From IMG/VR virus record IMGVR_UViG_3300025417_000566, positions 15,115-79,114 of that record: a stretch of DNA of 64,000 nucleotides, one strand, 5' to 3'. Shown here piece by piece: positions 36,687-64,000 of this stretch (within the stretch, counting starts at the first letter, position 1; each line of letters starts with the position of its first letter). Under the pieces are notes generated by a model. The model made no database searches. It was not told where the DNA came from and saw only the letters and a program-made list of their open reading frames with translations. This DNA is from a virus. Position numbers and translations under genes: made by a program.

Positions 36687-37040
36687 ATGACAGAAGCCAA
36701 AGAAGAAGATTACGTATTATTTTGGGAAGCACCCAAAATTGAAAAACCTGAATTCAGACTTTACTATGACGCAAAAGGCAGTGTTGTTTGTTATACTTGT
36801 GAAAAGTTAGACGGGGATTATATTGTAATTGATGCACTTACTTATGCAGAAGGACGCCCCGATGTTCGTGTTGTTAACGGAAAATTAGTAAAAATTAACA
36901 ACAATGCAGTAGTAAGTAAATTAGTTCCTGATGAAGAAGAAGGTCAACTTTGTTCTATTGATGATGTTAGTATCATCGTTACAAAGAAAGACAAAGTAAA
37001 AAAACAAAAATGGAAATTAGCAACTTATGAACTCGGATGA
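36687..37040 (+). CDS. Hypothetical protein
   Basis: 117-aa ORF filling the gap, overlapping the next gene. FRLYYDAKG...YIVID...RVVNGKLV is loosely like small fibre-chaperone N-terminal domains. Confidence 0.5.
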   Translation: MTEAKEEDYVLFWEAPKIEKPEFRLYYDAKGSVVCYTCEKLDGDYIVIDALTYAEGRPDVRVVNGKLVKINNNAVVSKLVPDEEEGQLCSIDDVSIIVTKKDKVKKQKWKLATYELG

Positions 37041-37980
37041 TATTGTTGATGTAGCAGACTTAGATTGCATTTATCTAAGTTATGACGAACCACAGAAAGA
37101 AGAATTTTGGTTAAAGATTAAGAACATGGTTCCTTGGGCAAAGCGTGTTGATGGGGTCAAAGGTAGTGATGCCGCACACAAAGCCGCAGGTGAGGCAAGT
37201 GAAACAGAACGTTTTATTCTTATTGACGGTGACAACATGCCTGATGAAGAATTCTTCAACATTCAGTTAGACTTTACTGATAAGAGTCCTAACTATAAAC
37301 AAGCACAGTTTCGTTGGAAAGCAGTTAATGCTATCAACGGACTACGATACGGTAACGGTGGCATGAGCAGTTGGACAAAGACTTATGTTGCTAATATGAA
37401 AACACACGAAAATCAAAATGAAGGTGATGTTTCACGTATTGCTGACTTTTGTTTAGATAGCGCAGACAACTTATACTGGGCTATGTACGATTGCTATAGC
37501 ACGACCTACCCTAATTACACTCCCTTTCAGGCTTGGCGTGCAGGTTTTCGTGAAGGTGTCAAGATGTGTTTGAATCGCGGTGCTGTACCCAGCATTGAAG
37601 AATTCAAAGAAACAGTTGCCAGTCGCAATCTAAACAACCTTACAATTTGGCACAATGTGGGCACAGATGTTGAGAATGGTATTTGGGCTATCTATGGTGC
37701 TAGATTAGGCACATACATGACTATGTTATCTGATTGGGATCATACTAATGTTCAATGGTTTGATAACTATATTGAAATGTGGGACCAATACAAAGACAGA
37801 GATCCTCAACACTCAGCAGAATTTTTTGGTGAAGCATTGAGTGACAAGTTAGGTCTACCTATCTGTACACTTAGCCCAGAACAAAGCAAGTTTTTCAAAC
37901 GTCATTATAATAGTGATAAACATAACTTAGGTCCTTTAGTAACTGAAATGGATGTTATTCGTAGGATCGAAGGCTGGTAA
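37027..37980 (+). CDS. Glycosyltransferase-like protein (GT-A/GT2-like)
   Basis: DCIYLSYDEP, RVDGVKGSDAAHKAA, FILIDGDN (DxD), YGNGG and QAWRAGFREGVKM. Confidence 0.7.
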   Translation: MNSDDIVDVADLDCIYLSYDEPQKEEFWLKIKNMVPWAKRVDGVKGSDAAHKAAGEASETERFILIDGDNMPDEEFFNIQLDFTDKSPNYKQAQFRWKAVNAINGLRYGNGGMSSWTKTYVANMKTHENQNEGDVSRIADFCLDSADNLYWAMYDCYSTTYPNYTPFQAWRAGFREGVKMCLNRGAVPSIEEFKETVASRNLNNLTIWHNVGTDVENGIWAIYGARLGTYMTMLSDWDHTNVQWFDNYIEMWDQYKDRDPQHSAEFFGEALSDKLGLPICTLSPEQSKFFKRHYNSDKHNLGPLVTEMDVIRRIEGW

Positions 37981-40648: not shown

Positions 40649-41880
40649 ACCTAGACAAAGAATTTTTATTGAATGAAAGCAAAACGTTTTGCATGTTCCC
40701 CTGGGTTCATCTTAATGTAACACCTAAAGGTGATATTTATCCTTGCTGTAGTAATGATTACACTAAGCCATTTGGAAACACTAAAAAGACTTCTCTTAAA
40801 GAAGCATTTAACAGTGACCAAATGAAACAGTTACGTTTAGATATGCTAAACGAAAAGAAAAACGATATTTGCACATTTTGTTATAAACACGAAGAAGCAG
40901 GCCCACATAGTTTTAGAAACTACAGTAAAGAACAATTTAGCAAACGCTTTGATGAAATCGTTCCAACTACACAGGCTGATGGAACAGTAGAAGAATTCAA
41001 AATGCGTTACTTTGATATTCGTTTTAGCAATATCTGTAACTTCAAGTGCAGAACATGTGGTAGCGAATTCAGTAGTCAATGGGGTGCAGAAATGCAAAAG
41101 CACTTTGATGACAAACACCCAATTGTTATTCATGCTGACGATGGTAAGGGGACAGTACTACAAGAAGTATTGTCACATATTGAATATATCGACCTCGCTT
41201 ATTTTGCAGGTGGTGAACCATTGATTACTGATGAACATTATGTAATGTTGGAAGAAATGATTCGTTTGGGTAAAACTGACATTACACTACGTTACAATAC
41301 CAATGCAAGTAATATCAAGTATAAGAAACATGATATCCTAGACTTATGGAAATACTTTAAAAAGATCGAATTGAGTTGTAGTGTAGATCATTATGGTGAA
41401 CGAGCAGAATGGTTACGCAAGGGAACTGATTGGGGTAAAGTAGAAAACAATCTATTGACTTTCCGTGATTTAGATTACATTAGTTTCCAAATGAATACTG
41501 TGTTTAGTATTTTCAACTATAGCACTATTGGTGAATTTTATAGTTATTTAAAGAGTAAGAACATTGTAAGGCGTGAAGATTGGTATCATAGTCTTTACCT
41601 AGCAGTTCATCCTAGTTACTATTGTGCTAAGAGTTTACCCAAAGAATTAAAAGTAGAGGCAAGTGCCAAAGCATTAGCCTGGGCAGAGGCAAATAAAGAT
41701 GATAATACTTCATTGTCAAGATTGGTAACAGACGCAGTTAATTTTGCTAGCGACCGTGATCAATGGCACGAAGTTAAGGATCAATTTATAATGCATACCC
41801 GAAGTATTGACAGGATCAGAGAAGAAAACTTCTGGGAAGTTTTCCCCGAATTAAATAAGTTACAAGACTTAGAGGAATAA
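40645..41880 (+). CDS. Radical SAM enzyme with N-terminal Twitch domain
   Basis: CNFKCRTC, FAGGEP, and N-terminal FCMFPW...PCC...ICTFC. Close paralog of the preceding gene. Confidence 0.9.
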   Translation: MNLDKEFLLNESKTFCMFPWVHLNVTPKGDIYPCCSNDYTKPFGNTKKTSLKEAFNSDQMKQLRLDMLNEKKNDICTFCYKHEEAGPHSFRNYSKEQFSKRFDEIVPTTQADGTVEEFKMRYFDIRFSNICNFKCRTCGSEFSSQWGAEMQKHFDDKHPIVIHADDGKGTVLQEVLSHIEYIDLAYFAGGEPLITDEHYVMLEEMIRLGKTDITLRYNTNASNIKYKKHDILDLWKYFKKIELSCSVDHYGERAEWLRKGTDWGKVENNLLTFRDLDYISFQMNTVFSIFNYSTIGEFYSYLKSKNIVRREDWYHSLYLAVHPSYYCAKSLPKELKVEASAKALAWAEANKDDNTSLSRLVTDAVNFASDRDQWHEVKDQFIMHTRSIDRIREENFWEVFPELNKLQDLEE

Positions 41881-41882
41881 AC

Positions 41883-42140
41883 ATGGCAACTTTTGAAGCA
41901 GGAAATAAAGACGTAAGATTACAAGGTATGGTAAAAGACATCATGGCAAAGTATGTCGATAAAACACCTTTTACTGAAGAAATTTGTGATCAAATCATGG
42001 CAGATGTATTAGAAACATTTGGCAAAGAAGCCGATGCAAAGGTTATGATTGATACAGATACTAACGAAATTGAAATCACAGTACGTGATTTAATCAAAGT
42101 ACCAATGACATTTTCATCACTAAAACTTTTCAAGGCATAA
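41883..42140 (+). CDS. Small acidic hypothetical protein within the radical SAM array
   Basis: 85 aa with GAGG RBS. It fills the gap between two rSAM genes exactly. Confidence 0.65.
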   Translation: MATFEAGNKDVRLQGMVKDIMAKYVDKTPFTEEICDQIMADVLETFGKEADAKVMIDTDTNEIEITVRDLIKVPMTFSSLKLFKA

Positions 42141-42141
42141 G

Positions 42142-43413
42142 ATGGACAAGGCAGTAGTCAAAAATCTAGTAGAAAACGGTAAACACTTTTGTGTGTTACC
42201 TTGGGTACACTTTCATGCATGGCCTGATAGCCGTGTAATGCCTTGCTGTGTTGCAGATAGCAACATGCCTGTGGCAAAGATTGAAAGTGATCAGTCTATC
42301 ATTGAAATGATGAACAGCGAAGACTACAAAAAGATTCGCACAGCAATGATGAATGACGAGCCTGTTGAGGCTTGCAAACGTTGTTATGACTTAGAATTAA
42401 TGGGCACATGGACTATGCGCCAAAGTCATAACAAGCGCAGAGGTCTAGATTATGTTGACTACATCGGTGACGTTACAAATGATGATGGCTCATTAAAAGA
42501 GTTTGAAATGAAATACATGGATATTCGTTTCAGTAATCTATGTAATATGAAATGTCGTAGTTGTGGCCCTGCATGTTCAAGTCAATGGGCACAAGAGTTC
42601 ATGGATCAACGTGGCGAAGAAGTATTCAAAGAGTACTTCCCTAATCAAAAAATTGTTGTTAACAACAACGAAGACCAAACACTTATGCTTAAACTAAAGC
42701 CATATCTTGCTGATGTGACTGAAGTATATTTTGCTGGTGGCGAAATCATTATTACACCTGAGCATTACGAATGTTTAGACTATTGGATTGAAAATGGATT
42801 AACAGATCAAGTTGAATTAAACTATACAACAAACTTCTCTTCATTGAAGTACAAGAAAAATGTAGACTTGATTGAATACTGGAGTAAGTTCCCCAACTTA
42901 CAAGTATGGGCTTCATTAGATGCACATGGCGACCTTGCTGAATGTATTCGCAAGGGTACTGATTGGTCTAAGATTGAAGCAAACATTCGTGAGATTAAAG
43001 AAAAAGTCCCGCATGTTAAGTTTCAAATCACTCCTACAATTAGTATTTGGAATGTGTTTGACTTCCCAGACTTCTTTGACTACATGATTGAAAAAGGATT
43101 TATCGATACTAGCAGTAGTCCACGATTTAATCTTGCAACTAACCCATGGTATGCAAACATTATGATTCTACCTAAACACGTTAAGCGTAGACTAACAGAA
43201 TTGTATAGAGTATACCAAGAAAAGTATAAAGATAACATTGATATCTATAATGGATTCAAAATGATTATCTATAACTTAAACGTGGGTGATGAAAACAAAG
43301 GTGGTATCTTAGAGTTCAAGCAGTTTAATGATGAACTTGACGGATTCCGTGATGAAAAACTTGAAAACATAGTACCAGAATTAAAAGAGGTTTATGAGTG
43401 GGCCGCAAGTTAA
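42142..43413 (+). CDS. Radical SAM enzyme with N-terminal Twitch domain
   Basis: CNMKCRSC, FAGGE, and N-terminal FCVLPW...PCC...ACKRC. Confidence 0.9.
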   Translation: MDKAVVKNLVENGKHFCVLPWVHFHAWPDSRVMPCCVADSNMPVAKIESDQSIIEMMNSEDYKKIRTAMMNDEPVEACKRCYDLELMGTWTMRQSHNKRRGLDYVDYIGDVTNDDGSLKEFEMKYMDIRFSNLCNMKCRSCGPACSSQWAQEFMDQRGEEVFKEYFPNQKIVVNNNEDQTLMLKLKPYLADVTEVYFAGGEIIITPEHYECLDYWIENGLTDQVELNYTTNFSSLKYKKNVDLIEYWSKFPNLQVWASLDAHGDLAECIRKGTDWSKIEANIREIKEKVPHVKFQITPTISIWNVFDFPDFFDYMIEKGFIDTSSSPRFNLATNPWYANIMILPKHVKRRLTELYRVYQEKYKDNIDIYNGFKMIIYNLNVGDENKGGILEFKQFNDELDGFRDEKLENIVPELKEVYEWAAS

Positions 43414-50584: not shown

Positions 50585-51795
50585 ACGCTGTACCTGCCAG
50601 ACAAGGCCCAATGACCGATTTAAGAAAGTGCGTTGAAGATTGGCCATGGTGTTTAGACCTCGCCGCATCTATTTTAGAAAAGGCTTTTAATAAGCCGGTT
50701 ACTACCTCTGAAATAATTTATATACACGAATCTACTAATATTTCAAACCCTAATGAAGTCAAAGAAAAAACAGAGAGTGCAATAAAATATATATTAGAAG
50801 AAATAGCAAATAAATCGGGCCAATACTATATTGTTCTAGCATTACCAAGTGAAGCGTTTGATTTCAACTTTTTAAAATTTACAGATGCATTTGTTAAAAA
50901 ACTAGTATTGGAATATAAAATAAATTATAACGATATTGTATATTTGACAGGAGCATCCGATACGGTAAATAACAGAAAACTGTATTATGATTACTGCATA
51001 AAAAACAATTATCTTCCAACACAAATAGTTTATCACAACTATTTTGAATATTTACAATGTAAATATGCTAATCGTGACGCACATATTGAAGAGATTGAAT
51101 TTAATTCAAATCCAAACTCAACAAAAAAGTTTTTGTTTTTAAATGGTGTAGCAAGACCGCATAGATTGTTTTTATTGGGTGAACTAATAAAACGAGATTT
51201 GTTGGAGTTATCATATTATTCTATGGTAGATACTCCTCAGTCGATATACCAATATCAATACGAACCTATTTCTAATTTTAGTAAAATGATCAAAGAATAT
51301 GTGTCCACAATTCAAGATAGATTGCCTATAAATTTATCATTAAAGCAAGATTTAAGTAACATGGGGAAAGTAACTAAAGAAGATGAAGTGTTTTATCAAA
51401 CATCATTGTTTAGTTTAATATCTGAAACATTATTTTTGAGTAATATGGATACCAGCACTTTAAACTATAGACTAGCAACTTGGTGTTATCCTTGCCATTT
51501 TGTAACTGAAAAAACATGGAAACCCATAAAAGCAAAACATCCTTTTATTGTGGCTAGCACACCTTATTTTTTAAGAGAATTGCGTGAATTGGGTTATAAA
51601 ACATTTAGTCCTTATATTGATGAATCATATGATTTAATAGAAAATGATGAACAAAGAATTTATGCTATCGTTGACGAAGTAGAACGTTTATGTAAAATGA
51701 ATGAAACAGAAACACAAGAGTGGTTAAATAATGTAGAACGTATATGTGATTATAACTATAGACTTTTGAAACGTAGAGGATTTCAAGCAAAATGA
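50566..51795 (+). CDS. Putative glycosyltransferase, GT10-like 'SET...TEK' family
   Basis: FLFLNGVARPHR, FSLISETLF, FVTEKTWKPIKAKHPFIV and LRELGYKTFSPYIDESYD. The true start may be the ATG at 50611. Confidence 0.5.
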   Translation: MDHEEINAVPARQGPMTDLRKCVEDWPWCLDLAASILEKAFNKPVTTSEIIYIHESTNISNPNEVKEKTESAIKYILEEIANKSGQYYIVLALPSEAFDFNFLKFTDAFVKKLVLEYKINYNDIVYLTGASDTVNNRKLYYDYCIKNNYLPTQIVYHNYFEYLQCKYANRDAHIEEIEFNSNPNSTKKFLFLNGVARPHRLFLLGELIKRDLLELSYYSMVDTPQSIYQYQYEPISNFSKMIKEYVSTIQDRLPINLSLKQDLSNMGKVTKEDEVFYQTSLFSLISETLFLSNMDTSTLNYRLATWCYPCHFVTEKTWKPIKAKHPFIVASTPYFLRELRELGYKTFSPYIDESYDLIENDEQRIYAIVDEVERLCKMNETETQEWLNNVERICDYNYRLLKRRGFQAK

Positions 51796-52514
51796 AAATA
51801 TTATTTACAAATGGTTGTAGTTGGACCTATGGTGGCGGGTTAGATAACTTATATGACGATGAAACACTACGTAATGAAATTACATGGCCAGCACAATTAA
51901 AAACATTAATGAATTTTGACAGACATGTTAATTTGGCTGAAGGATGCGGTAGTAACCAACGCATTATTAGAACCACATTAGAATGGATATGGCAACAAAC
52001 ACCAGAAACATTACAGAATACTACAGCAGTAATTCAATGGACTGAACCTTCACGCTACGAATATTATTATCCTAAGGATATGAATAATAGTTTTGAAAGT
52101 TTACCTGATCGATGGGCAAGAGTTAAAGTAGGAACTGTTATTAGCAAGACTGAATTAAAAGACAGAAGTTCTTATGAAGAAATGTTTATAGATTCACAAA
52201 AACGTTATGAAAATTATACAGATATTGAGGGTCTTTATCAACACATCACTCATTGTGAATCATTAGCAAGTATATTTAAATCATATGGTATCAAATATTA
52301 CTATTGGAGTTATTGTGCTACACATGGTAATATGCCACCTCCCTACAAAAGATTTTTTATGGATAGATACAATTGGTTAGAATCATCAGGTAGACACGAT
52401 TGGAAATACGAAAGAATTAGTGAAAAAGATCATCACCCAAGCACACTGGGACATAAACAACTAGCAGAATATATCAAAGAAACAATTGAAGAGACTTTTG
52501 GCTATTATGGATGA
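51792..52514 (+). CDS. SGNH/GDSL-fold protein
   Basis: TNGCSWTYG, NLAEGCGSNQRIIR, IQWT and DHHPSTLGHKQLAEYI. Confidence 0.7.
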   Translation: MKILFTNGCSWTYGGGLDNLYDDETLRNEITWPAQLKTLMNFDRHVNLAEGCGSNQRIIRTTLEWIWQQTPETLQNTTAVIQWTEPSRYEYYYPKDMNNSFESLPDRWARVKVGTVISKTELKDRSSYEEMFIDSQKRYENYTDIEGLYQHITHCESLASIFKSYGIKYYYWSYCATHGNMPPPYKRFFMDRYNWLESSGRHDWKYERISEKDHHPSTLGHKQLAEYIKETIEETFGYYG

Positions 52515-54584: not shown

Positions 54585-56900
54585 TTGGATTTTAATTTAC
54601 GTAGTTTGGCTGTAGACGAGTTAAAGCCAAAAGAAAGACCAACAGAAGATATAGCAGATGCACGCCATCGTAGCATGATGGAAGCCATTGCCCCTTATGC
54701 CAAATCAGTAGTAGTAAATCAAAAGAATCTTACTCCGGTATATGTAGATTACAAGACAAGAAACACTAAACTTGTGCTTGTACTATGCCCTGAATGGAGT
54801 CCCTATATGCCCCCATTTAGTCTTGCTAGACTTAGTGGTGTGGCAAAAAGTGCGGGATACGAAACGCACATCATGGACTTGAATGTTAAAGCATATAATG
54901 CTTATCGTGATGATTGGCAACCAAACAAGAAATTACCATTTAGACTTTGGGACCCTGCAAGTTCATGGCACTGGTTAGGTGACACGTACATGAATGATAT
55001 TCATCCTGTGTTAGAACCTATTCTTAGCGAAGCAGTAGACAAGATTATTGAAATGAACCCAAGTGTTGTTGGATTCAGTATCTATTACATTAGCGAAGAG
55101 CCTAGCAAATGGATGTGCCAAGAAATTAAACGTAGAGCACCTCATATTAAGATTGCAGTTGGTGGGCCTAATGTACACAAGAGTTGGTTTAAGATTGAAG
55201 ACTATTATGATTATGTTATTGTAGGTGAAGGCGAACAGAATTTATTAGTAATGCTTGATGAAATCGAAGCAGGATCAGATCACAGTGGTGCAGCCAGAGT
55301 ATTAACACAGCCTGAAGATCAACGTATCAATATCAATGGTCTTCCTATGCCAGACTATGAGAGTATTGACTTTAGTTTGTACGAAGTACCTAATGGAGTT
55401 AACAGTGAGATTAGTCGTGGATGTACAGCAAAGTGTACATTCTGTGAAGAAACACACTTTTGGAAATATCGTCAACGTCAAAGTGTTGACTTAATTACCG
55501 AAGTTGAATGGTTATACTACAACAAAGGCACTGACATCATTTGGTTCATTGATAGTTTGATCAATGGTAATATTAAAGAACTACGTGCATTTGCATTAGG
55601 ACTTAAAGCCAAATACTTAAAGGTTCGTTGGACTGGTTATGCACGTTGCGATGGTCGTATGACATTAGACTATCTGCAAGACTTAGCAGATGGTGGATGC
55701 ATTATGTTTAACTTTGGTTGTGAATCAGGATCACAAAAAGTATTAGACGATATGCACAAAGGTGTTACCATTCAAGAAATGGAACAGAACTTTATTGACT
55801 GTAAAAAAGTAGGCATCTGGGCCGCAACTAACTGGATCGTTGGATTCCCCACTGAAGAGTATCAAGACTATAGCGATACAATGACATTCATGTGGCGTAT
55901 GCGTAACAACAATATCAATAACATGGGTCTTGGTGTGGGATATGGATTAGGTCCTGAAACAATTGTAGGACAGAATCCACACGCATACAATGTATCGTGG
56001 CACAAATATCAAGGTCACTGGATCAGCAATGATTTAAAAATGGGTGGCACACACGTTATGACACGTGTTAAGTGCATTCACATTTGGCTAGATATGTTTA
56101 ATGGTTGCACAGAAGTTCCTGTGACATATCCTGTACGTCATGCACTTGCACAGCGTCATTACAACATCAGATTGAATAATCCTGCAAAACAAAAAGAAAT
56201 GCATTATGAAGAATTTGATTACAATATCATTCCACCTGTTGACTCAAACAATCCATTTGCAAATGCATTAGTAAATGAAATGTGGCCTTTCTTTAGAAAT
56301 CTATGGCGCGCACGTGGTGGCTATGAAGCAGAAATCTTATTTCACCCTGACTTAGATATCAAAGAGTTTGGCCAACAGTTTGGTCCTGAAATGTATTATG
56401 CAAAGTACAAGTTTAAGATCACTGATGAAGGTCAATGGGAAGCAGACTTTGATATTAAGTTTGAACAAATTGATAATCCTTGGGATGATCGTAAACCACC
56501 ACCAGAAGGTCGTAAAGGCCCATTCTATGCACAAGATTATTCACGCTTGCAAAGTAACACAGTTAAACGTGCAAGAAAGTTAGCAAAAGCAACTTGGAGT
56601 GAAGAAGAAGGTCGTAGTGGACAAGACTTTGCTGACTTATTAAATGAAGAAGCAGTACTTAATGCTACTATTGATTTTAGTTTTGAATTAAAGTGGCAAG
56701 GCACAGGTGATTGGAGTAACTACATGGACTATGTAGTTACACTAGAAGAGAAAGAACAGAAACGTGACAAGAGTAAAGACTTGTCTATGCCAGAAAAAGA
56801 AACGTTTGAGGGCACTGAAGTTAAATCAGTTGTGCCAGCAACAACCGTAATTACTTTAGACAGCATCAAACGAACAAGACCAAAGCATTTATTACCATGA
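54585..56900 (+). CDS. Cobalamin-binding radical SAM enzyme (class B methylase-like) with long C-terminal extension
   Basis: PPFSLARL, VVGFSIY, IAVGGP, VGEGE, EISRGCTAKCTFC, FGCESGSQKVLDDMHKG and WIVGFPTE. Confidence 0.88.
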   Translation: MDFNLRSLAVDELKPKERPTEDIADARHRSMMEAIAPYAKSVVVNQKNLTPVYVDYKTRNTKLVLVLCPEWSPYMPPFSLARLSGVAKSAGYETHIMDLNVKAYNAYRDDWQPNKKLPFRLWDPASSWHWLGDTYMNDIHPVLEPILSEAVDKIIEMNPSVVGFSIYYISEEPSKWMCQEIKRRAPHIKIAVGGPNVHKSWFKIEDYYDYVIVGEGEQNLLVMLDEIEAGSDHSGAARVLTQPEDQRININGLPMPDYESIDFSLYEVPNGVNSEISRGCTAKCTFCEETHFWKYRQRQSVDLITEVEWLYYNKGTDIIWFIDSLINGNIKELRAFALGLKAKYLKVRWTGYARCDGRMTLDYLQDLADGGCIMFNFGCESGSQKVLDDMHKGVTIQEMEQNFIDCKKVGIWAATNWIVGFPTEEYQDYSDTMTFMWRMRNNNINNMGLGVGYGLGPETIVGQNPHAYNVSWHKYQGHWISNDLKMGGTHVMTRVKCIHIWLDMFNGCTEVPVTYPVRHALAQRHYNIRLNNPAKQKEMHYEEFDYNIIPPVDSNNPFANALVNEMWPFFRNLWRARGGYEAEILFHPDLDIKEFGQQFGPEMYYAKYKFKITDEGQWEADFDIKFEQIDNPWDDRKPPPEGRKGPFYAQDYSRLQSNTVKRARKLAKATWSEEEGRSGQDFADLLNEEAVLNATIDFSFELKWQGTGDWSNYMDYVVTLEEKEQKRDKSKDLSMPEKETFEGTEVKSVVPATTVITLDSIKRTRPKHLLP

Positions 56901-57652
56901 ACAAAGAAAAAATAATGTTAATTGCAGGATGTAGCCATGCCGCTGGATCAGAAATAAACGGGCAAGAAGACAGCGTTTATAATAGACAGCATAGTTTTGG
57001 TGCACGACTTGCAGACAAGATGGGTTATAGACCTATTAATATTGCAACCAATGGTGCATCAAATAGTTGTATTGCTAGAAGCATATTAAACTGGTTTGAT
57101 CAAAACTATAATGAAAACTCTATGGATGTTTTTGTATTGACTTCATGGACAGAAAGCGTTAGATTGGAAGTTCCATCTACGAGAAACTTTATTTACAATG
57201 TAAGTAGTAAGGCTGCCGATTGGTTTGACAACACAATCAATACATATTTTAGAATCACATTTGGTTGGGACGGCGGTGACCCCGAAGAAAAAGAATTGTT
57301 TCCCAAATACCATCGTTTCATGGCTGAGAATGAGCCTATGTTAGAAATGTGGAGCGCAAACTACGTGCTACAGATTCAATACTTTTTAAAATCCAAAAAT
57401 GTAAAATATCTAATGTGTAATGCTATGCATATGTTTACAAAAGATTCTCCTCATGTAGCACAAATAACAAAACTTATTGACAGAAATAACTATTATAAGT
57501 TAGATTCAGAAAAAGATGATGCATTCTTTTGGAAGTACAAGAATTTGGGCTATACTAATCCAAAGGCTAAATACTGGCATCACGATGAAGTACCCCACCA
57601 ACTCTACGCAGAAGAGTTATATAATTTTTTAAAGGAAAACAACAATGTTTAA
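56897..57652 (+). CDS. SGNH/GDSL-fold protein
   Basis: IAGCSHAAG, NIATNGASNSCIAR and YWHHDEVPHQLYAEEL. Confidence 0.65.
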   Translation: MNKEKIMLIAGCSHAAGSEINGQEDSVYNRQHSFGARLADKMGYRPINIATNGASNSCIARSILNWFDQNYNENSMDVFVLTSWTESVRLEVPSTRNFIYNVSSKAADWFDNTINTYFRITFGWDGGDPEEKELFPKYHRFMAENEPMLEMWSANYVLQIQYFLKSKNVKYLMCNAMHMFTKDSPHVAQITKLIDRNNYYKLDSEKDDAFFWKYKNLGYTNPKAKYWHHDEVPHQLYAEELYNFLKENNNV

Positions 57653-57749
57653 TTGGGTAAAAAGAATTTACAATAAAATCAAACGTGAGATACAATATAG
57701 AAAACGTATCAAAGAATTAAAAAAGCGTGACCCTTTCATCTATAAATAA
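57645..57749 (+). CDS. 34-aa basic peptide ending ...KRDPFIYK (not in ORF track)
   Basis: MFNWVKRIYNKIKREIQYRKRIKELKKRDPFIYK*. It has an AAGGA RBS and fills the gap before the carbamoyltransferase. Confidence 0.7.
   Translation: MFNWVKRIYNKIKREIQYRKRIKELKKRDPFIYK
57741..57748 (+). promoter_or_regulatory. T4 late promoter consensus TATAAATA
   Basis: Perfect consensus overlapping the end of the peptide gene, 5 nt before the ATG at 57754. Confidence 0.45.
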
Positions 57750-57753
57750 GCAC

Positions 57754-59238
57754 ATGAAATACTTAGGAATCAGTTGCGGCTTTCATGATGCAGGTATAAC
57801 TGTCATTAATGACAGTGGTGATATCCTATTTGCTGGTCACAGCGAAAGATACAGTAAAATCAAACATGATGCTAATCTTTGTGTTGATTTAGTGCATGAT
57901 GCTAAAAAACATGTTAGAGACCTATATGAAGTTCACTACTATGAAAAGCCCTGGGTAAAGGCTATACGTCAACTTAGAGCAGGACAAAGTGTTGGACCGC
58001 TTAATATGAAAAAACTATTAGGTGAAAATATCATTGATAAATTTAATGATCGTAGTGGTTCAATTAAAACACATAGTCATCACTTAACACATGCGGCAGC
58101 AGGATTCCAAACTAGCCCCTTTGACAATGCAACTGTAGTAGTTATTGACGCTATTGGGGAACTCGACACTATCAGCATTTATAATGCATACTATGATAAA
58201 AATGGTATGGCACGTTATGAAAAACTATGGAGTAAACAATATCCTAACAGCATTGGATTGATGTACTCAGCAATGACAAAACGTGTGGGGTTGAAACCAT
58301 TAGATGAAGAATACATTCTCATGGGTATGGTTGCATATGGCAAAGCATTGCACAGTGAAGAAATTAGTCGTGAGTTTTTGTCAGACAAAGATAACTTAGA
58401 TTTTGCACAAAACTTGCACACCGGAGTAAGAGAAAAATTCTTAGAGAATGCCAACGATATGGATATCGCCGCATCAACTCAACTTCTTACTGAAGAACTA
58501 ATTGAAATCATTATGCGTAAGGCTAGATCATTGGGTACTAGCAGTAATCTAGTATATGGTGGCGGTGTTGCATTAAACTGTTTAGCAAATAGATTGTTAG
58601 GTAATCATTTTAGCAAAATTTGGATCATGCCTAATCCAGGTGATGCAGGTAATAGTTTAGGTGCGGCAGCATTAGGCTATGGTAAAAAGTTAAATTGGAA
58701 GAATGCATTTTTAGGACACGAAATACCTGGTCGTTATCCTATTTTAAACTTGTATAAAGAATTAAAACATAGTAAGATAGTAGGTATAGCAAGTGGTCGT
58801 GCAGAGTTTGGGCCACGTGCTTTAGGTAACAGAAGTTTATTAGCGGATCCCCGTGGGGATGAAATTAAGGATAAAGTAAATGAAATCAAACGTAGACAAA
58901 AATTCAGACCATTTGCGCCTCTCATTTTGGAGGAGTTGGTTCATGATTACTTTGATATGCCTGTTGGCTGGGACAACTCTAGGTATATGCAAGTCATCGC
59001 TACTTGTAGGCATCCTGACCTATTTCCTGCTATCGTTCACGCTGACGGCACTAGTCGTGTCCAGACTGTTCCTAAAGATGGAAGTGGAATCAGAATTCTC
59101 TTAGAACTTTGGTATCAAGCCACAGGATGTCCAATATTGCTTAATACATCACTAAACATCCGTGGCGAACCAATGGTCAATGACCGTAGTGATGCAGATA
59201 GATTTGAAAAACTTTATGGCGTAAAAGTTTACTCTTAA
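57754..59238 (+). CDS. O-carbamoyltransferase, NodU/CmcH/TobZ family
   Basis: YLGISCGFHDA, HSERYSKIKHD, HHLTHAAAGF, VIDAIGE, GGVALNC, PNPGDAG, EFGPRALGNRSLLADP, FRPFAP, HADGTSRVQTV and LLNTSLN. The likely start is the ATG at 57754, not the GTG at 57727. Confidence 0.93.
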   Translation: MKYLGISCGFHDAGITVINDSGDILFAGHSERYSKIKHDANLCVDLVHDAKKHVRDLYEVHYYEKPWVKAIRQLRAGQSVGPLNMKKLLGENIIDKFNDRSGSIKTHSHHLTHAAAGFQTSPFDNATVVVIDAIGELDTISIYNAYYDKNGMARYEKLWSKQYPNSIGLMYSAMTKRVGLKPLDEEYILMGMVAYGKALHSEEISREFLSDKDNLDFAQNLHTGVREKFLENANDMDIAASTQLLTEELIEIIMRKARSLGTSSNLVYGGGVALNCLANRLLGNHFSKIWIMPNPGDAGNSLGAAALGYGKKLNWKNAFLGHEIPGRYPILNLYKELKHSKIVGIASGRAEFGPRALGNRSLLADPRGDEIKDKVNEIKRRQKFRPFAPLILEELVHDYFDMPVGWDNSRYMQVIATCRHPDLFPAIVHADGTSRVQTVPKDGSGIRILLELWYQATGCPILLNTSLNIRGEPMVNDRSDADRFEKLYGVKVYS

Positions 59239-59241
59239 ATA
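59234..59241 (+). promoter_or_regulatory. T4-late-like promoter core (CTTAAATA)
   Basis: Overlaps the carbamoyltransferase stop, 4 nt before the ATG at 59246. Confidence 0.35.
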
Positions 59242-59245
59242 CAAG

Positions 59246-62200
59246 ATGCTTAGAGATGTATTCTATTACGGAAATAAACCAAACGTTCACCCCAGAGAAA
59301 GATTTGCAGAATCATTAGAAGATGCAAGAGAAAAGTGTACAACCGAACACTTTTGGATCATCAATGAATTCTGTGACTATCGAGGATTCGACTGGGATTT
59401 TGATTTTGAATTCTTACCTGATGAAGAAGTGTGGGCAGAAGAACATAACAATGTCTGGCCCAGCCAACATCAAAAAGACAGTGGCACATGGTTATGCCCC
59501 AAAGAACCAGGTGAAGTTATCATATATCGCAGTGATGTAGACCCTGTTGTTAGAAAAAACGAAAAGAATGATAACTGGGTATTATTAGATAATATAGACG
59601 AATACAAATTTGATTTTAGTTGGCATCCAGACCCAACTGATCCTCCCTATATCTATCGCTGGGGTTCAAAGTTTGCACCAGTACAATTAAAACCTGTATT
59701 AGAATATCATACACCTAATGCAACTGAAGTCAAATACATGGCTACAACAGTTGAACTTACGATTGAAAGAGATAAATGGGTATTCTATCAACAGCCTGAT
59801 CCTAATAAATTTGACTTTACATGGAGACCTAATCCATTGGATCCGCCATACATTTACGTATGGGGTAACAAACATATTGATGGTACATTAAAACCCACTG
59901 TTGAATATCATGTACCAGGCGCAACTGATAAAAAGTACATGCCTGAAAAATTAGAAGTATTACCTGAATGGGACAAGTGGGCGCTTTTAAAAGAAGTAGA
60001 TAAAACAAAATTTGATTTTACATGGAGACCCGACCCACGTGAGCCGGCTTACATTTATACATGGGGCAATAAATACGAACCTGCTGAAATAACACCTACG
60101 TTGCAGTATGTGTGTGATGGTGCTACAGAAATAAAATACATGGGTGATACTATAGATGTGCTACCACAATGGGACAAGTGGGATATCATTTTACCTATAG
60201 ATAAATCTACATTTGATTTTACATGGAGACCTGATCCACGTGAACCTAATTTAAATTATGTGTTTGGCAATGACCAGTATGATAGTACTATCATGCCTAC
60301 ACTTATCTATAAGATGGAAGGTGCTACAGATGAAAAGCACATGCCAAGTAACACAAAGTTATTACCACAAAAGCAAAACTTTGAATTTTTAGAAAACAGC
60401 GATGGCATTGATTATAGTTGGGTACCTAATCCAACTGCGCCTCCTTATATCTATGCATGGGGCAATCAATGGAACAAAGCAGAAGATAAGATTAGTATTC
60501 AATATGTAGTTGAAGGTGCAACAGAATATCAATACATGGATGAACGTGCTATTCGTAAATTCTGTATGGATAATTGGATTATTCCTGACAATGTTGACAC
60601 AACAGGCTTTGATTTTAGTTGGGAACCTAATCCTAATGATCCTCCTTATATTTATGAATTTGCTACGCAGTGGCAAAAGACAGGTGGACCTCGCTATGTA
60701 GTAGAGGGTGCAACTGAAACAAAGTACATGGACTTTCAAAAGGCTAAAAAGTTAGTTGATATGACTAACTGGACTATTCCTAAGAATGTTGATGTTAGCA
60801 ACTTTGACTTTAGTTGGCATCCAGATGCAACAAGTCCTCCTTATATCTATAACTTCCCTACGCAATGGGCATTAAGCGGTGGACCAACATATACTGTTCC
60901 TAATGCAACAGAAGTAAAATACGTAGATGATCAATCGGCAAAGGCAATTCCTAATAAAGATAATTGGGATTTTGATCCAACGTTGATTGACGAAAACAGT
61001 TTTGATTTTAGTTGGCATCCGTATGCTGAAGACGAACCCTATATCTATCAGTTTGGTACACAGTGGCAAAAAACAGGTGGACCAAGATATATTACACCTG
61101 GAGTACATAAGAACAGTCCAGTTAGTTATGTAGACACACGTGTATTAAAAGCAAAGCGTTTACCTAATCAAAAGAACTGGGCTGTACTTGATAACTTAGT
61201 TATAATTGATTTTGATTATAGTTGGCATCCTGACGAAACAGAAGAACCTTACATTTATCAGTTTGGTAATAACTTGTATCCAGCAGAGATTATGCCAACA
61301 GTAGAGTATAGTGTTCCTAAGGCAAAACAAGTTAAGTATGTTAGTGATATCATTGCTACACTAGGGCAAGATAGAACTAACTGGGAAATCCCCGACAACG
61401 TTGATACTACAGGATTTGATTTTAGTTGGAAGCCTAATCCCAAAGACCCACCCTATATCTATGAGTTTGCAACTCAGTGGCAGAAGACTGGCGGTCCTAA
61501 ATATATTGTAGAAGGTGCAACTGAAACAAAGTATATTGACACATGCAAAGTTAAAAGATTGCCTTCCGAAGAAAACTGGACTGTACCTACTAACATTGAT
61601 ATTACTGATTTTGATTTTAGTTGGCATCCAGATGCGACAAGTCCACCATACATTTATAACTTTGCAACTCAGTGGGCATTAAGTGGTGGTCCTGTATATA
61701 CTGTACCTGGGGCAACAGAAATCAAATATGTAGAAGATCAAACTGCACGTGCATTGCCTGATAAAACGAATTGGCAATACGATAGTAATTTAATTGATGA
61801 AAACAGTTTTGATTTTAGTTGGCATCCCTATGTAGAAGATCAACCTTATATCTATATCTTTGGTACACAATGGCAAAAGACTGGTGGTCCAAAATATATT
61901 ACACCAGGCTGTCATAAAAACAGTCCTGTAAAATATATTGACACACGTATTATTAAAGCAAAACGTTTGCCATCAATGAACCACTGGAATATGATATATG
62001 ATATTGATATGTCAAGTTTTGATTTTAGTTGGCATCCAGATGATACAGATGATCCTTTTATTTACCAATTCGGTAATACACAATATCCTGCAGAAGAAAT
62101 GCCTACAGTAGAGTATTGCGTTGAAGGTGCTAAGAAATTCAAATATGTGTCAGATGTTGTTGCTAAGTTAGCACCTAATACTGATAACTGGATTATACCT

Positions 62201-64000
62201 AAAGGTATAGATACAACTGAATTTGATTTTAGTTGGCATCCACATCCTAAGGATCCTCCTTATATCTATGAGTTTGCAACTCAATGGCAAAAAACAGGTG
62301 GACCACAATACAAAGTATACGGTGCAACTGAAGTCAAGTATGTTTCTGAACCCAAAGCAAAGAAACTACCTAATATGAAAAACTGGGTAGTACCAGACAA
62401 TATTGATGTTGATGGTTTTGATTTTAGTTGGCACCCTGACGATACTGCACCACCTTACACGTATCAATTCCCCACGCAGTGGGCATTGACAGGCGGACCC
62501 GTGTATGTGGTGCCTAATGCAACTATAAAGAAATATGAAGAATGTCAAACAGCAAGAGTTCTTCCTAGTACAAAAAACTGGGAATATGATGCTACACAGA
62601 TTGACGTAAGTTCATTTGACTTTAGTTGGCATCCATATGCAGAAGATGATCCTTTCATTTATCAGTTTGGTACTCAATGGCAAAAGACAGGTGGACCAAA
62701 ATATATTACGCCAGGCACCACTGCTGATAGCCCAGTAAAATACGTAGACACACGTATTATTAAAGCAAAGCGTTTGCCAAACAAAGATAACTTTGTTGTG
62801 CTGCCTGGCTTTAACATTAAAGAGTTTGATTATAGTTGGCATCCAGATGATACTGAACCTGCATACACCTATGTATTTGGTAACGAATGGCATAGTGCAG
62901 AGCGTGAACCTACACTTGAGTATCGTGTAATTAATTCAACAGATAAAAAATATATTAATAATGTATTTGCTAAGTTAACTCCTGATATGAGTTTGTGGGA
63001 TATTCCCGACAACGTTGATATATCTAAGTTTGACTTTAGTTGGCATCCAGACCCACATTCACCACCTTATATCTATGAGTTTGCAACAGTGTGGCAAAAT
63101 CGAGGAGGTCCTAAATACAAAACTCCAGGTGCAACTGAAGTAAAATATATTGAAGACATTAAAGCACCGTTAGTGCCTAGTAAAAAGAATTGGTTGATTC
63201 CTGAAAATGTAGATGTATCAACATTTGATTTTTCATGGGTACCTCATCCACTAGCGCCACCTTATATCTATCAGTTTGGTACAATTTTAGATGAGAAAGA
63301 TGGCCCAAGATATCTTACACCAGGTAATAACGGAGAGATTGTATACTTAGATCGTATTGAAGTTGATCCTGCAACATTAGTTGAAGTAAAGATTGGTCAA
63401 TACTTTATTGATACAACACTTGAAGATTTAGTAAAGAAACATCCTGACGAAATCTTTTGGGCGATGCAAAAAAACATTGACTATTCTACATTTGATTTTG
63501 CATGGAGACCTGAAGTTATCAACATTGCTTGGGAATCTGATTACGTTAACGTGTTCGGTTCACCTGATAGTGAAGTTACGCAGACATACTTTGTTAATGC
63601 AAAGTCTTATTTGAAAGGCAAAACAGATTTCAAATTTATTGAGGAGACTGCAATTGATGATAAGTCATTGGCTAAACTGTTTAAAAAGCCAGACATGTTC
63701 TACGTTGACAAAGGCAATAAAGAATCATCAGCACGTTTTGAATTACTCAAAGCCAAGTTCCCGCACATTCAAAAGACACGTTATCTAAACAGTTGGGTAG
63801 ACACAATCAATCGTTGTACTAATCGTGCAACCACTCCCATATTATGGATATTGAATAGTGAGTTAGATTACAGTAACTTTGACTTTGAATACTATCCTAA
63901 CCCTTGGCAGATGAAAATGGTTCATGTATTTGGTACTCAATGGAGTCATTGGGGAACCACATTCATGGTCAATCGTGAAACGTTTAGCAATGATACCAAA
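59246..64000 (+). CDS. Large repeat protein (>1585 aa, runs off the window; absent from the ORF track) with ~19 tandem FDFSWxP repeats flanked by degenerate GT-A-like segments
   Basis: ATG at 59246 (MLRDVFYYGNKPNVHPRE...). The repeats and the last codons (...FMVNRETFSNDTK) are in the same frame, and I saw no stop. Repeat core FDF(S/T)WxPxxxxPPYIYxF(G/A)xQW. Confidence 0.85.
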   Translation, partial: MLRDVFYYGNKPNVHPRERFAESLEDAREKCTTEHFWIINEFCDYRGFDWDFDFEFLPDEEVWAEEHNNVWPSQHQKDSGTWLCPKEPGEVIIYRSDVDPVVRKNEKNDNWVLLDNIDEYKFDFSWHPDPTDPPYIYRWGSKFAPVQLKPVLEYHTPNATEVKYMATTVELTIERDKWVFYQQPDPNKFDFTWRPNPLDPPYIYVWGNKHIDGTLKPTVEYHVPGATDKKYMPEKLEVLPEWDKWALLKEVDKTKFDFTWRPDPREPAYIYTWGNKYEPAEITPTLQYVCDGATEIKYMGDTIDVLPQWDKWDIILPIDKSTFDFTWRPDPREPNLNYVFGNDQYDSTIMPTLIYKMEGATDEKHMPSNTKLLPQKQNFEFLENSDGIDYSWVPNPTAPPYIYAWGNQWNKAEDKISIQYVVEGATEYQYMDERAIRKFCMDNWIIPDNVDTTGFDFSWEPNPNDPPYIYEFATQWQKTGGPRYVVEGATETKYMDFQKAKKLVDMTNWTIPKNVDVSNFDFSWHPDATSPPYIYNFPTQWALSGGPTYTVPNATEVKYVDDQSAKAIPNKDNWDFDPTLIDENSFDFSWHPYAEDEPYIYQFGTQWQKTGGPRYITPGVHKNSPVSYVDTRVLKAKRLPNQKNWAVLDNLVIIDFDYSWHPDETEEPYIYQFGNNLYPAEIMPTVEYSVPKAKQVKYVSDIIATLGQDRTNWEIPDNVDTTGFDFSWKPNPKDPPYIYEFATQWQKTGGPKYIVEGATETKYIDTCKVKRLPSEENWTVPTNIDITDFDFSWHPDATSPPYIYNFATQWALSGGPVYTVPGATEIKYVEDQTARALPDKTNWQYDSNLIDENSFDFSWHPYVEDQPYIYIFGTQWQKTGGPKYITPGCHKNSPVKYIDTRIIKAKRLPSMNHWNMIYDIDMSSFDFSWHPDDTDDPFIYQFGNTQYPAEEMPTVEYCVEGAKKFKYVSDVVAKLAPNTDNWIIPKGIDTTEFDFSWHPHPKDPPYIYEFATQWQKTGGPQYKVYGATEVKYVSEPKAKKLPNMKNWVVPDNIDVDGFDFSWHPDDTAPPYTYQFPTQWALTGGPVYVVPNATIKKYEECQTARVLPSTKNWEYDATQIDVSSFDFSWHPYAEDDPFIYQFGTQWQKTGGPKYITPGTTADSPVKYVDTRIIKAKRLPNKDNFVVLPGFNIKEFDYSWHPDDTEPAYTYVFGNEWHSAEREPTLEYRVINSTDKKYINNVFAKLTPDMSLWDIPDNVDISKFDFSWHPDPHSPPYIYEFATVWQNRGGPKYKTPGATEVKYIEDIKAPLVPSKKNWLIPENVDVSTFDFSWVPHPLAPPYIYQFGTILDEKDGPRYLTPGNNGEIVYLDRIEVDPATLVEVKIGQYFIDTTLEDLVKKHPDEIFWAMQKNIDYSTFDFAWRPEVINIAWESDYVNVFGSPDSEVTQTYFVNAKSYLKGKTDFKFIEETAIDDKSLAKLFKKPDMFYVDKGNKESSARFELLKAKFPHIQKTRYLNSWVDTINRCTNRATTPILWILNSELDYSNFDFEYYPNPWQMKMVHVFGTQWSHWGTTFMVNRETFSNDTK
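59570..63330 (+). repeat. Coding tandem repeat, ~195-210-nt unit, with an exact 807-nt four-unit super-repeat
   Basis: FDF/FDY anchors at ~59609, 59810, 60011, 60212, 60407, 60608, 60803, 61001, 61211, 61415, 61610, 61808, 62018, 62222, 62417, 62615, 62825, 63029 and 63224. Confidence 0.9.

What the first reader, a model, noticed from the sequence alone, without database searches (positions are those of the whole stretch)
59246..64000. Hidden >1585-aa protein of ~19 tandem FDFSWxP repeats, seemingly amplified from a glycosyltransferase sub-domain
The ORF track misses it because no stop occurs in the window. Each 65-70-aa unit reads W..P..(V/I)D...FDFSWxP....PPYIYxF.TQW...GGP.Y...GAT..KY. The non-repeat ends (FWIINEFCDYRGFDWDF near the start; LWILNSELDYSNFDFEYYP...VHVFG near the end) resemble the strand carrying the DxD region in GT-A proteins such as 37027-37980. 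Inference: a Trp/Pro/Tyr-rich array of sugar- or nucleotide-binding modules acting as scaffold, ruler or processivity track for the island's glycan. I do not recognise it as a named repeat family.
Basis: partly seen in the sequence, partly recalled or inferred. Interest (0 to 1): 0.8.

Follow-up and report, generated by a model that had tools for sequence, protein, structure and literature searches.

The report
Giant phage protein of glycosyltransferase-fragment repeats
An uncultured jumbo phage encodes a roughly 2,050-residue protein in which a 67-residue piece of a sugar-transferase (GT-A) fold is copied 19 times between a conserved head and three fuller GT-A-like domains that all lack the usual metal-binding motif; the design is common in jumbo-phage metagenomes, has no name, and has no tested function.

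Summary
The frame at 59246-64000 is open for 1585 codons and holds 19 strong tandem units of 65-70 aa. Three degenerate copies flank them. The window ends where the contig ends. A 99.94%-identical contig (L007) extends the gene by 468 codons, giving about 2053 aa.

The idea of an amplified glycosyltransferase sub-domain is supported:
- Profile comparison links the unit to FDF modules inside the C-terminal domains.
- An AlphaFold model of five units is all-beta (pLDDT 95).
- Its only structural neighbours, all weak, are GT-A or nucleotidyltransferase folds, each aligning one unit.

The C-terminal 678 aa fold (pLDDT 87.6) into three GT-A-like domains. None keeps a DxD motif. The last domain has an invariant Lys/Arg where its stand-alone paralog (ORF 37027-37980) has DGD.

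In 58 relatives, both ends are about 74% identical. The array runs from 6 to 33 units in a conserved order, a-b-c-d-e, then ABCD cassettes, then z. Forms with 1-3 units also exist.

The gene sits beside a carbamoyltransferase in a sugar-nucleotide and radical-SAM operon. Its function is untested. My best guess is a transferase or glycan-binding protein held on a rigid spacer of variable length.

The scan has already met this family on other genomes. I found no paper and no matching Pfam, NCBIfam or PHROG family.

The parts
59246..59569 (+). N-terminal head module (aa 1-108). It is a short GT-A-like module with its own FDF motif (HFWIINEFCDYRGFDWDFDFEF).
   Evidence: Mean pairwise identity is 74% over 68 homologs. 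HMMs of C-terminal modules m1, m2 and m3 detect it at i-E 7e-5, 3e-4 and 6e-5.
59570..63385 (+). Array of 19 tandem units of 65-70 aa (aa 109-1380). Consensus: NW.IP.N(V/I)D...FDFSWHPD...PPYIY.FGTQW...GGP.Y.V.GAT..KY. Unit order: a b c d e ABCD ABCD ABCD A z.
   Evidence: The AF2 model of units 6-10 has pLDDT 95 and pTM 0.78 and is all-beta.
60569..62989 (+). Three copies of the four-unit A-B-C-D super-repeat (269 aa, 807 nt each).
   Evidence: DNA self-matches are about 70% identical. Homologs match best at 4-unit offsets. The unit order is shared across 58 relatives.
63371..63682 (+). D0, a transitional unit-like module (aa 1376-1479) with FWAMQKNIDYSTFDFAWRP.
   Evidence: hhalign of the unit profile against this module gives 97.8% probability, E 9e-13.
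63683..64000 (+). First part of GT-A-like domain D1 (aa 1480-1585 of about 1610), cut by the contig end. It contains LWILNSELDYSNFDFEYYP. D2, D3 and a helical tail follow only on L007:3484-4812.
   Evidence: AF2 model of the C-terminal 678 aa: pLDDT 87.6. VIA gives Z of about 10 to IspD/MobA-type folds for residues 105-236. Mean pairwise identity is 74%.
57727..59238 (+). Carbamoyltransferase gene directly upstream (7-nt gap); the conserved neighbour.
   Evidence: Pfam Carbam_trans_N and Carbam_trans_C, E 2e-33 and 1e-46. A homolog is present in 63 of 74 related loci.
37027..37980 (+). Stand-alone paralog of the last domain (D3). It keeps a canonical DGD motif.
   Evidence: The D3 HMM hits it at E 2.8e-15. 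The alignment shows DGD against AKL. More than 8000 close relatives exist, all unnamed.
59236..59241 (+). TAAATA, 4 nt before the ATG, overlapping the upstream stop codon. It resembles a T4-type late promoter. Consensus match only.
Evidence: Sequence read.

Best explanation
The gene encodes a cytoplasmic protein of about 2053 aa built almost entirely from one GT-A-like glycosyltransferase module.

Architecture:
- A conserved short module at the N-terminus.
- 19 tandem copies of only the second, strand-rich half of the module. This half runs from the strand that normally ends in DxD, through the FDFSWxPD loop, to the next two strands. Together the copies are predicted to form a continuous all-beta array.
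- A transitional unit, D0.
- Three fuller GT-A-like domains, D1-D3, and a helical tail.

Origin (shown): the array arose by amplifying and trimming a D1-like or N-terminal-like module. It changes length between phages by gain and loss of internal cassettes (ABCD, AD, runs of c), while the end units stay fixed.

Function (inferred): the protein works inside the phage's sugar-nucleotide, radical-SAM and carbamoyltransferase operon. D1 and/or D3 would bind or transfer a sugar without the usual metal, with the invariant Lys/Arg at the DxD position of D3 taking the metal's place. The rigid array would hold the conserved N-terminal head at a set distance from that end, or bind the polymeric acceptor.

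The architecture and origin are well supported, at about 0.9. The enzymatic and spacer role is a guess, at about 0.4-0.5.
For: - Real gene: 1585 codons without a stop in DNA of about 37% G+C. A near-identical contig gives a complete C-terminus.
- Unit is a domain fragment: hhalign of the unit profile against C-terminal modules gives E 9e-13, 2e-7 and 7e-5. In the VIA-wide search of 48,161 chains, only 24 reached Z>=2. All 24 are GT-A or nucleotidyltransferase folds, each aligning one unit of 57-67 residues at rmsd 2.3-3.5 A.
- Repeat model: pLDDT 95, pTM 0.78, all strands, with long strands that run to the unit borders.
- C-terminal model: pLDDT 87.6. Three GT-A-like domains, with Z 11.6 to B4GALNT1 and Z 9-10.8 to WrtF, SunS, STIV A197, PBCV-1 A64R, SpsA, IspD and MobA. 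Top Foldseek hits are multi-GT-A enzymes: R699, K4CP, LH3 and PmHS2.
- Conservation: the N-terminus is 74% identical, D1 74%, D3 73% and the array 57%. The flanking carbamoyltransferase is 69% identical to the window's copy.
- DxD position: D3 has (A/G)(K/R) in every fused protein and sister-family member aligned, where the stand-alone paralogs have DGD.
- Sister families have 95-120-aa units that look like fuller modules, and they share D2 and D3 at E 1e-48 to 1e-100. Forms with 1 and 3 units exist.
- Operon context: a 7-nt gap to the carbamoyltransferase, and an overlapping start for the downstream SPASM/radical-SAM gene on L007. The carbamoyltransferase is nearby in 63 of 74 loci and the B12 radical-SAM gene in 47 of 74.
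Against: - No domain keeps a DxD motif. The positions read NSE, CSS and AKL, so all could be catalytically dead.
- No Pfam GT family reaches threshold. The best is Glyco_tranf_2_4 at E 0.024. A PDB sequence search finds nothing.
- The unit-to-GT-A structural matches are individually weak (Z <= 3.5). The case rests on their uniformity and on the profile match.
- There is no experimental data, and no cultured phage carries the gene.
Confidence: 0.5

Rival explanations
1. Catalytically dead scaffold. All GT-A-derived modules have lost catalysis. The protein is a pseudo-enzyme that organises the island's real enzymes (the stand-alone DGD paralog, carbamoyltransferase, radical-SAM enzymes) or holds the glycan substrate, much like the non-catalytic accessory GT-A-like domain of LH3 and R699.
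For: There is no DxD in any module, while the stand-alone paralog in the same operon keeps DGD. Top fold matches include LH3 and R699, which pair an active GT-A domain with an accessory one (PMC12279948 listed). The units lack the nucleotide-binding half.
Against: D1 and D3 are as conserved as enzymes, with many invariant polar residues (D, H, K, R, E, N, S). The basic residue at the DxD site is kept even in distant sister families, which suggests a compensating role rather than decay. From general knowledge, metal-independent GT-A enzymes such as GT14 C2GnT-L use basic residues in place of the metal.
Confidence: 0.27
2. Virion fibre or decoration protein. The beta array is a structural rod attached to the particle, and the GT-A-like end domains act as glycan-binding (lectin-like) heads for adsorption.
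For: The gene lies downstream of the baseplate genes and a 6475-aa virion protein. The predicted shape is elongated and the copy number varies, as in phage fibres. A TAAATA late-promoter-like motif sits 4 nt before the start.
Against: Both ends are highly conserved, whereas receptor-binding tips usually vary. The immediate neighbours on both sides are enzymes in a tight operon. No structural PHROG matches; the only hit is tail sheath at E 0.0034. The array length does not track the giant virion protein.
Confidence: 0.13
3. Molecular ruler. The array length sets the chain length of a phage-made polysaccharide, or the spacing of its modification, by separating a polymerising end (D1-D3) from a terminating or docking end (the N-terminal head, with carbamoyl- or methyl-transferases as cappers). 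This would be analogous to the WbdD coiled-coil ruler of E. coli O9a.
For: Two conserved ends are separated by an element whose length varies 1-33 units in discrete cassettes. Candidate capping enzymes are conserved next to the gene: carbamoyltransferase in 63 of 74 loci and a methyltransferase downstream in 14.
Against: There is no evidence of a polymer product and no polymerase signature. A rigid rod is predicted but not measured. The WbdD analogy comes from memory, not from a test.
Confidence: 0.1

Closest known systems
Multi-GT-A-domain transferases: E. coli K4 chondroitin polymerase (2z86/2z87), Pasteurella heparosan synthase 2 (8vh7), LARGE1
   Same: Several GT-A-fold domains sit in one chain, and these are among the top Foldseek matches of the C-terminal model.
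   Different: Those enzymes have two active domains, each with DxD, and no fragment-repeat array. Here there is no DxD and sequence identity is 7-10%.
Collagen glycosyltransferases LH3 (6fxk) and Mimivirus R699 (9dyt)
   Same: A GT-A domain is paired with a GT-A-like accessory domain. R699 is the top Foldseek hit (E 3e-6). It is viral.
   Different: They have no tandem half-domain array, their catalytic domain keeps the metal site, and their substrate is collagen.
Stand-alone phage GT-A-like family (window ORF 37027-37980; Ralstonia phage RsoM2USA gp348, annotated hypothetical)
   Same: True sequence homologs of D3: E 2.8e-15 for the window ORF, and 32% identity over 138 aa for gp348. They share RVDGV.G..A..AA.EAS.T and WR.AFRE.
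   Different: They keep DGD and YGNGG where the fused protein has AKL and YGHQA. They are single-domain proteins with no repeats.
Metal-independent GT-A enzymes (e.g. GT14 C2GnT-L), from general knowledge
   Same: GT-A fold without DxD, with basic residues taking the metal's role.
   Different: No sequence relationship was shown, and the analogy was not tested here.
WbdD coiled-coil ruler of O9a O-antigen synthesis, from general knowledge
   Same: A rod of variable length separates functional ends in a glycan pathway.
   Different: WbdD uses a coiled coil rather than a beta array. This is a functional analogy only.

Membership tests
GT-A fold glycosyltransferases (GT2-like) | Alpha/beta/alpha nucleotide-binding half plus a mixed sheet (the GT-A fold) | tested here: met
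   In the AF2 model (pLDDT 87.6), residues 105-236, 235-365 and 457-597 align to GT-A or nucleotidyltransferase chains at Z 9.2-11.6, rmsd about 3 A, over 120-143 residues.
GT-A fold glycosyltransferases (GT2-like) | DxD (or a close variant) metal-binding motif at the end of the fourth strand | tested here: not met
   The equivalent positions read NSE (D1), CSS (D2), AKL (D3) and PxN (units). The paralog ORF 37027-37980 has DGD.
GT-A fold glycosyltransferases (GT2-like) | Match to a curated GT sequence family | tested here: not met
   The best Pfam hit is Glyco_tranf_2_4 at E 0.024 and 15.6 bits, against a cutoff of 27.5. NCBIfam gives nothing relevant. PDB sequence searches give nothing.
GT-A fold glycosyltransferases (GT2-like) | Sugar transfer from an activated donor | not testable with these tools
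   This needs biochemistry.
Stand-alone phage D3-like family (ORF 37027-37980 / RsoM2USA gp348) | Significant sequence homology over the domain | tested here: met
   The D3 HMM against ORF 37027-37980 gives E 2.8e-15 over 165 profile positions. tblastn to RsoM2USA gives E 6e-8.
Stand-alone phage D3-like family (ORF 37027-37980 / RsoM2USA gp348) | DGD motif and single-domain architecture | tested here: not met
   AKL replaces DGD, and the domain is fused to the array.
Phage tail fibre or virion structural proteins | Match to structural PHROGs or to fibre folds | tested here: inconclusive
   The only PHROG hit is tail sheath at E 0.0034. Foldseek hits to S-layer and fibre proteins all have E > 1. 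No proteomics is available.
Named protein repeat families (Pfam) | Unit matches a curated repeat model | tested here: not met
   No Pfam family matches the repeat. The best hit is DUF4185 at E 9e-4 and 19 bits, against a cutoff of 39.5.

The most novel reading that the evidence does not exclude
The array is a molecular ruler or tether of discrete, evolvable length, built from amplified acceptor-side halves of a GT-A fold. It would set the length or spacing of a phage-made, carbamoylated or methylated glycan by separating a metal-independent transferase end from a conserved docking head. That would be a new way to build a rigid beta rod and a new type of chain-length control.
Probability: 0.12. 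Interest if true: 0.85.

Novelty: new variant of a known kind. Interest (0 to 1): 0.62.

Why it matters
This is a clear natural case of a fragment of an enzyme fold being amplified into a new, confidently predicted all-beta repeat architecture. Intermediates still exist: sister families with 95-120-aa units and forms with 1-3 units.

The family is common in an abundant, uncultured group of roughly 350-kb phages. It has no name in Pfam, NCBIfam or PHROGs, and I found no paper on it. It sits in a large operon of sugar-nucleotide, radical-SAM and carbamoyltransferase genes whose product is unknown.

The systematic change from DGD to (A/G)(K/R) gives a direct, testable hypothesis about metal-independent GT-A chemistry versus pseudo-enzyme evolution.

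Tried and rejected
- A full-length search of P0001 in the 5.8-billion-protein database timed out.
- Megablast of the gene and tblastn of a super-repeat against 50,697 cultured phage records found nothing. The C-terminus matched only RsoM2USA gp348.
- Tandem Repeats Finder sees no DNA-level array at the unit or cassette period.
- Pfam, PHROG and NCBIfam scans of the repeats, the N-terminus, D1, D2, D3 and the paralog gave no family above threshold.
- PDB sequence searches with a single sequence and with a profile were empty.
- Foldseek of the repeat model against the PDB found nothing with E <= 1e-3. The S-layer and adhesin rows have E > 1 and I set them aside as generic elongated beta proteins.
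- The unit HMM does not hit ORF 37027-37980 or any other window ORF significantly.
- P0136, a distant hit of the unit profile, is an unrelated Ig/cadherin-repeat protein.
- Ruler test against the neighbouring giant virion protein: its length is 6334-6571 aa in six genomes, while the unit number is 13-30. There is no meaningful scaling.
- The sigma-70 promoter and terminator scans were at shuffle level.
- Literature searches found nothing relevant ('jumbo phage' + carbamoyltransferase + radical SAM; 'FDFSW').
- The ESM Atlas returned only unnamed viral clusters. The nearest named cluster, Glycos_transf_2 at 0.87, is only a lead.

Full report
**1. The observation**

The + strand frame from 59246 runs 1585 codons to the window end without a stop. 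The window end is also the end of a 79,114-nt IMG/VR contig that CheckV rates 22% complete.

A motif scan shows FDF(S/T)W-type cores every 65-70 residues. I cut out 19 units, aligned them and built an HMM. It recovers the 19 units with per-unit i-E-values of 1e-25 to 1e-34. It also finds significant degenerate copies at aa 1405-1470 (3.7e-8) and 1534-1587 (8e-7), and weak ones further downstream.

Units 6-17 form three A-B-C-D cassettes of 269 aa whose DNA is only about 70% identical. Tandem Repeats Finder sees no DNA-level array at the unit or cassette period. This is therefore an old, protein-level repeat, not a recent slippage product or an assembly artefact.

**2. The missing C-terminus**

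A scan of viral contigs returned 76 loci. L007 and L008 overlap window 60593-64000 with 2 mismatches in 3408 nt and extend the frame by 468 codons to a stop. The protein is therefore about 2053 aa.

In 58 distinct homologs the plan is constant:
- about 108 aa at the N-terminus;
- 6 to 33 strong units;
- a C-terminal region that is nearly constant at about 675 aa (540-736).

**3. What the parts are**

*C-terminal region.* An alignment of 59 C-terminal regions (A1) gave an AlphaFold model with pLDDT 87.6 and pTM 0.74. Foldseek's top hits are multi-GT-A enzymes: Mimivirus R699, K4 chondroitin polymerase, LH3 and heparosan synthase 2. VIA-align resolves three GT-A or nucleotidyltransferase-like domains:
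- residues 105-236 (Z about 10, IspD/MobA);
- residues 235-365 (Z 9.2, a beta-1,4-galactosyltransferase);
- residues 457-597 plus helices (Z 11.6 to B4GALNT1, and 9-10.8 to WrtF, SunS/ThuS, STIV A197, PBCV-1 A64R, SpsA and hyaluronan synthases).

No sequence library names any of these domains.

*The repeat unit.* hhalign of the unit profile against the C-terminal modules gives:
- 97.8% probability (E 9e-13) for D0;
- 93.6% (E 2e-7) for the FDF segment of D1;
- 63.8% (E 7e-5) for that of D3;
- a weak 9.5% for D2.

In the model, the matching segment is the strand that normally ends in DxD, the FDFxWxPD loop, and the following strands.

A five-unit model (A3, 89 rows) has pLDDT 95 and pTM 0.78 and is all-beta, with long strands that run to the unit borders. 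Foldseek finds nothing in the PDB. The Foldseek-independent VIA search of 48,161 chains returns only 24 chains with Z>=2, and none above 3.5. Every one is a GT-A or nucleotidyltransferase-fold protein aligning exactly one unit. Each match is weak on its own. The uniformity, together with the profile match, is what makes the case. The unit is thus the acceptor-side half of a GT-A-like domain, without the Rossmann half that binds the nucleotide.

**4. Catalytic motifs**

The D3 HMM hits window ORF 37027-37980 at E 2.8e-15. That stand-alone paralog, and Ralstonia phage RsoM2USA gp348, read ...IDGDN... at the DxD position and YGNGG further on. The fused protein, the short forms and all six sister-family members examined read (F/W/P)(A/G)(K/R) and YGH(Q/M/G)(A/G) at those positions.

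By register with this alignment, D1 has NSE, D2 has CSS and the units have PxN at the DxD position. No module keeps a canonical metal site. The basic residue in D3 is nevertheless conserved over large evolutionary distances. D1 and D3 (74% and 73% mean pairwise identity) and the N-terminal head (74%) are clearly more conserved than the array (57%), D2 (59%) or D0 (49%).

I read this as two functional ends joined by an adjustable middle. D3 would be either metal-independent or a ligand-binding pseudo-enzyme.

**5. How the array evolves**

This shows a shared order: a b (c) d e, then a variable number of ABCD cassettes (also AD pairs and runs of c), then a terminal z. The shortest array is abcdez and the longest has 33 units.

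Two contigs binned with a Haliscomenobacter MAG carry 613-aa and 743-aa forms with 1 and 3 units. They again lie near a carbamoyltransferase and among phage-type genes (ThyX, DUF2201/VWA), so they are probably jumbo-phage contigs.

The exhaustive profile search of 1.84 billion representatives found only 184 proteins at E<=1e-3. The distant ones have units of 95-120 aa that resemble fuller N-terminal or D1-type modules, and they share D2 and D3 at E 1e-48 to 1e-100. Together these look like stages of amplification followed by trimming.

**6. Context**

The window starts with baseplate hub and wedge genes and a 6475-aa virion protein. The wedge protein is about 32% identical to those of Rak2/121Q/BF-type jumbo myoviruses.

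A same-strand block follows. It encodes SPASM and B12 radical-SAM enzymes, an SDR epimerase, a UDP-glucose dehydrogenase-methyltransferase fusion, two DUF6071 proteins and a carbamoyltransferase that ends 7 nt before our ATG. On L007 the next gene, a SPASM/radical-SAM enzyme, overlaps the stop codon, and a methyltransferase-like gene follows. A carbamoyltransferase homolog lies within 10 kb in 63 of 74 loci and the B12 radical-SAM gene in 47.

The protein has no signal peptide or membrane segment in its N-terminus as read.

**7. Mechanism**

Shown: the gene is real, and the architecture, the fold assignments, the fragment origin of the unit, the loss of DxD, the conserved ends, the cassette-wise length variation and the operon context are all as described above.

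Inferred: the protein acts in the island's glycan pathway as a transferase or glycan-binding protein whose two ends are held apart by a rigid array. Alternatively, the array binds a polymeric acceptor.

Rivals are a fully dead scaffold, a virion fibre and a chain-length ruler. A simple ruler relation to the neighbouring giant virion protein is not seen: that protein is 6334-6571 aa while the unit number is 13-30.

**8. Novelty**

UniProt/BFVD holds two uncharacterised relatives, A0A6J5L5L5 and A0A6J5LK21. The Atlas shows only unnamed viral clusters, and I found no paper.

This scan had already flagged the same family on other genomes, with follow-up conclusions much like mine. New here are:
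- the unit order across 58 homologs;
- the forms with 1-3 units;
- the sister families with 95-120-aa units;
- the conservation of the Lys/Arg-for-DGD swap across all of them;
- the quantified conservation of both ends.

I rate it a new variant of a known kind: a GT-A derivative with a new repeat architecture.

Noticed in passing
window 12345-31772 (+): A single 6475-aa ORF matches a PHROG virion structural protein (E 3e-182 for its first 2000 aa). Its length is tightly conserved, at 6334-6571 aa, in five related jumbo-phage contigs.
   Followed up: partly
window 59236-59241: TAAATA overlaps the carbamoyltransferase stop codon and lies 4 nt before the ATG of the repeat gene. It resembles a T4-type late promoter, which would give a nearly leaderless transcript. 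This is a consensus match only.
   Followed up: no
L084:5926-7764 and L085:5938-8166 (MAG labelled Haliscomenobacter sp., NZ_JBBAKG01): Short 613-aa and 743-aa members of the family have 1 and 3 units. They sit on 148-kb and 183-kb contigs that also carry carbamoyltransferase, radical SAM, ThyX and DUF2201/VWA genes. These are probably jumbo-phage contigs binned with a Bacteroidota MAG, which gives a possible host lead.
   Followed up: partly
P0082, P0091, P0094, P0138, P0146, P0152 (metagenome proteins): Sister families share D2 and D3, but their tandem units are 95-120 aa (for example EW.WV.D.RIDY..FDF.WLPDAWD...HCFTMK in P0082). They look like less-trimmed versions of the same amplification.
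   Followed up: partly
window 39347-43413 and L007:4812-5963: Several radical-SAM enzymes have the SPASM/Twitch auxiliary cluster domain N-terminal to the radical-SAM core, the reverse of the usual order.
   Followed up: no
window 37027-37980: The stand-alone DGD-containing GT-A-like paralog has more than 8000 close database relatives, at 82-89% identity among the best 120 listed. All are unnamed and have no Pfam domain. It is a very abundant, conserved and unannotated jumbo-phage gene.
   Followed up: partly
window 51792-52514 and 56897-57652: Two DUF6071 paralogs (E 7.5e-12 and 1.6e-4) are interleaved with the B12 radical-SAM genes. Their function is unknown.
   Followed up: no
L007 / L008: Two 8321-nt contigs from different samples (3300013093 and 3300013094) carry the same gene end. 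L007 is 99.94% identical to the window. This suggests the same phage population was sampled repeatedly.
   Followed up: no
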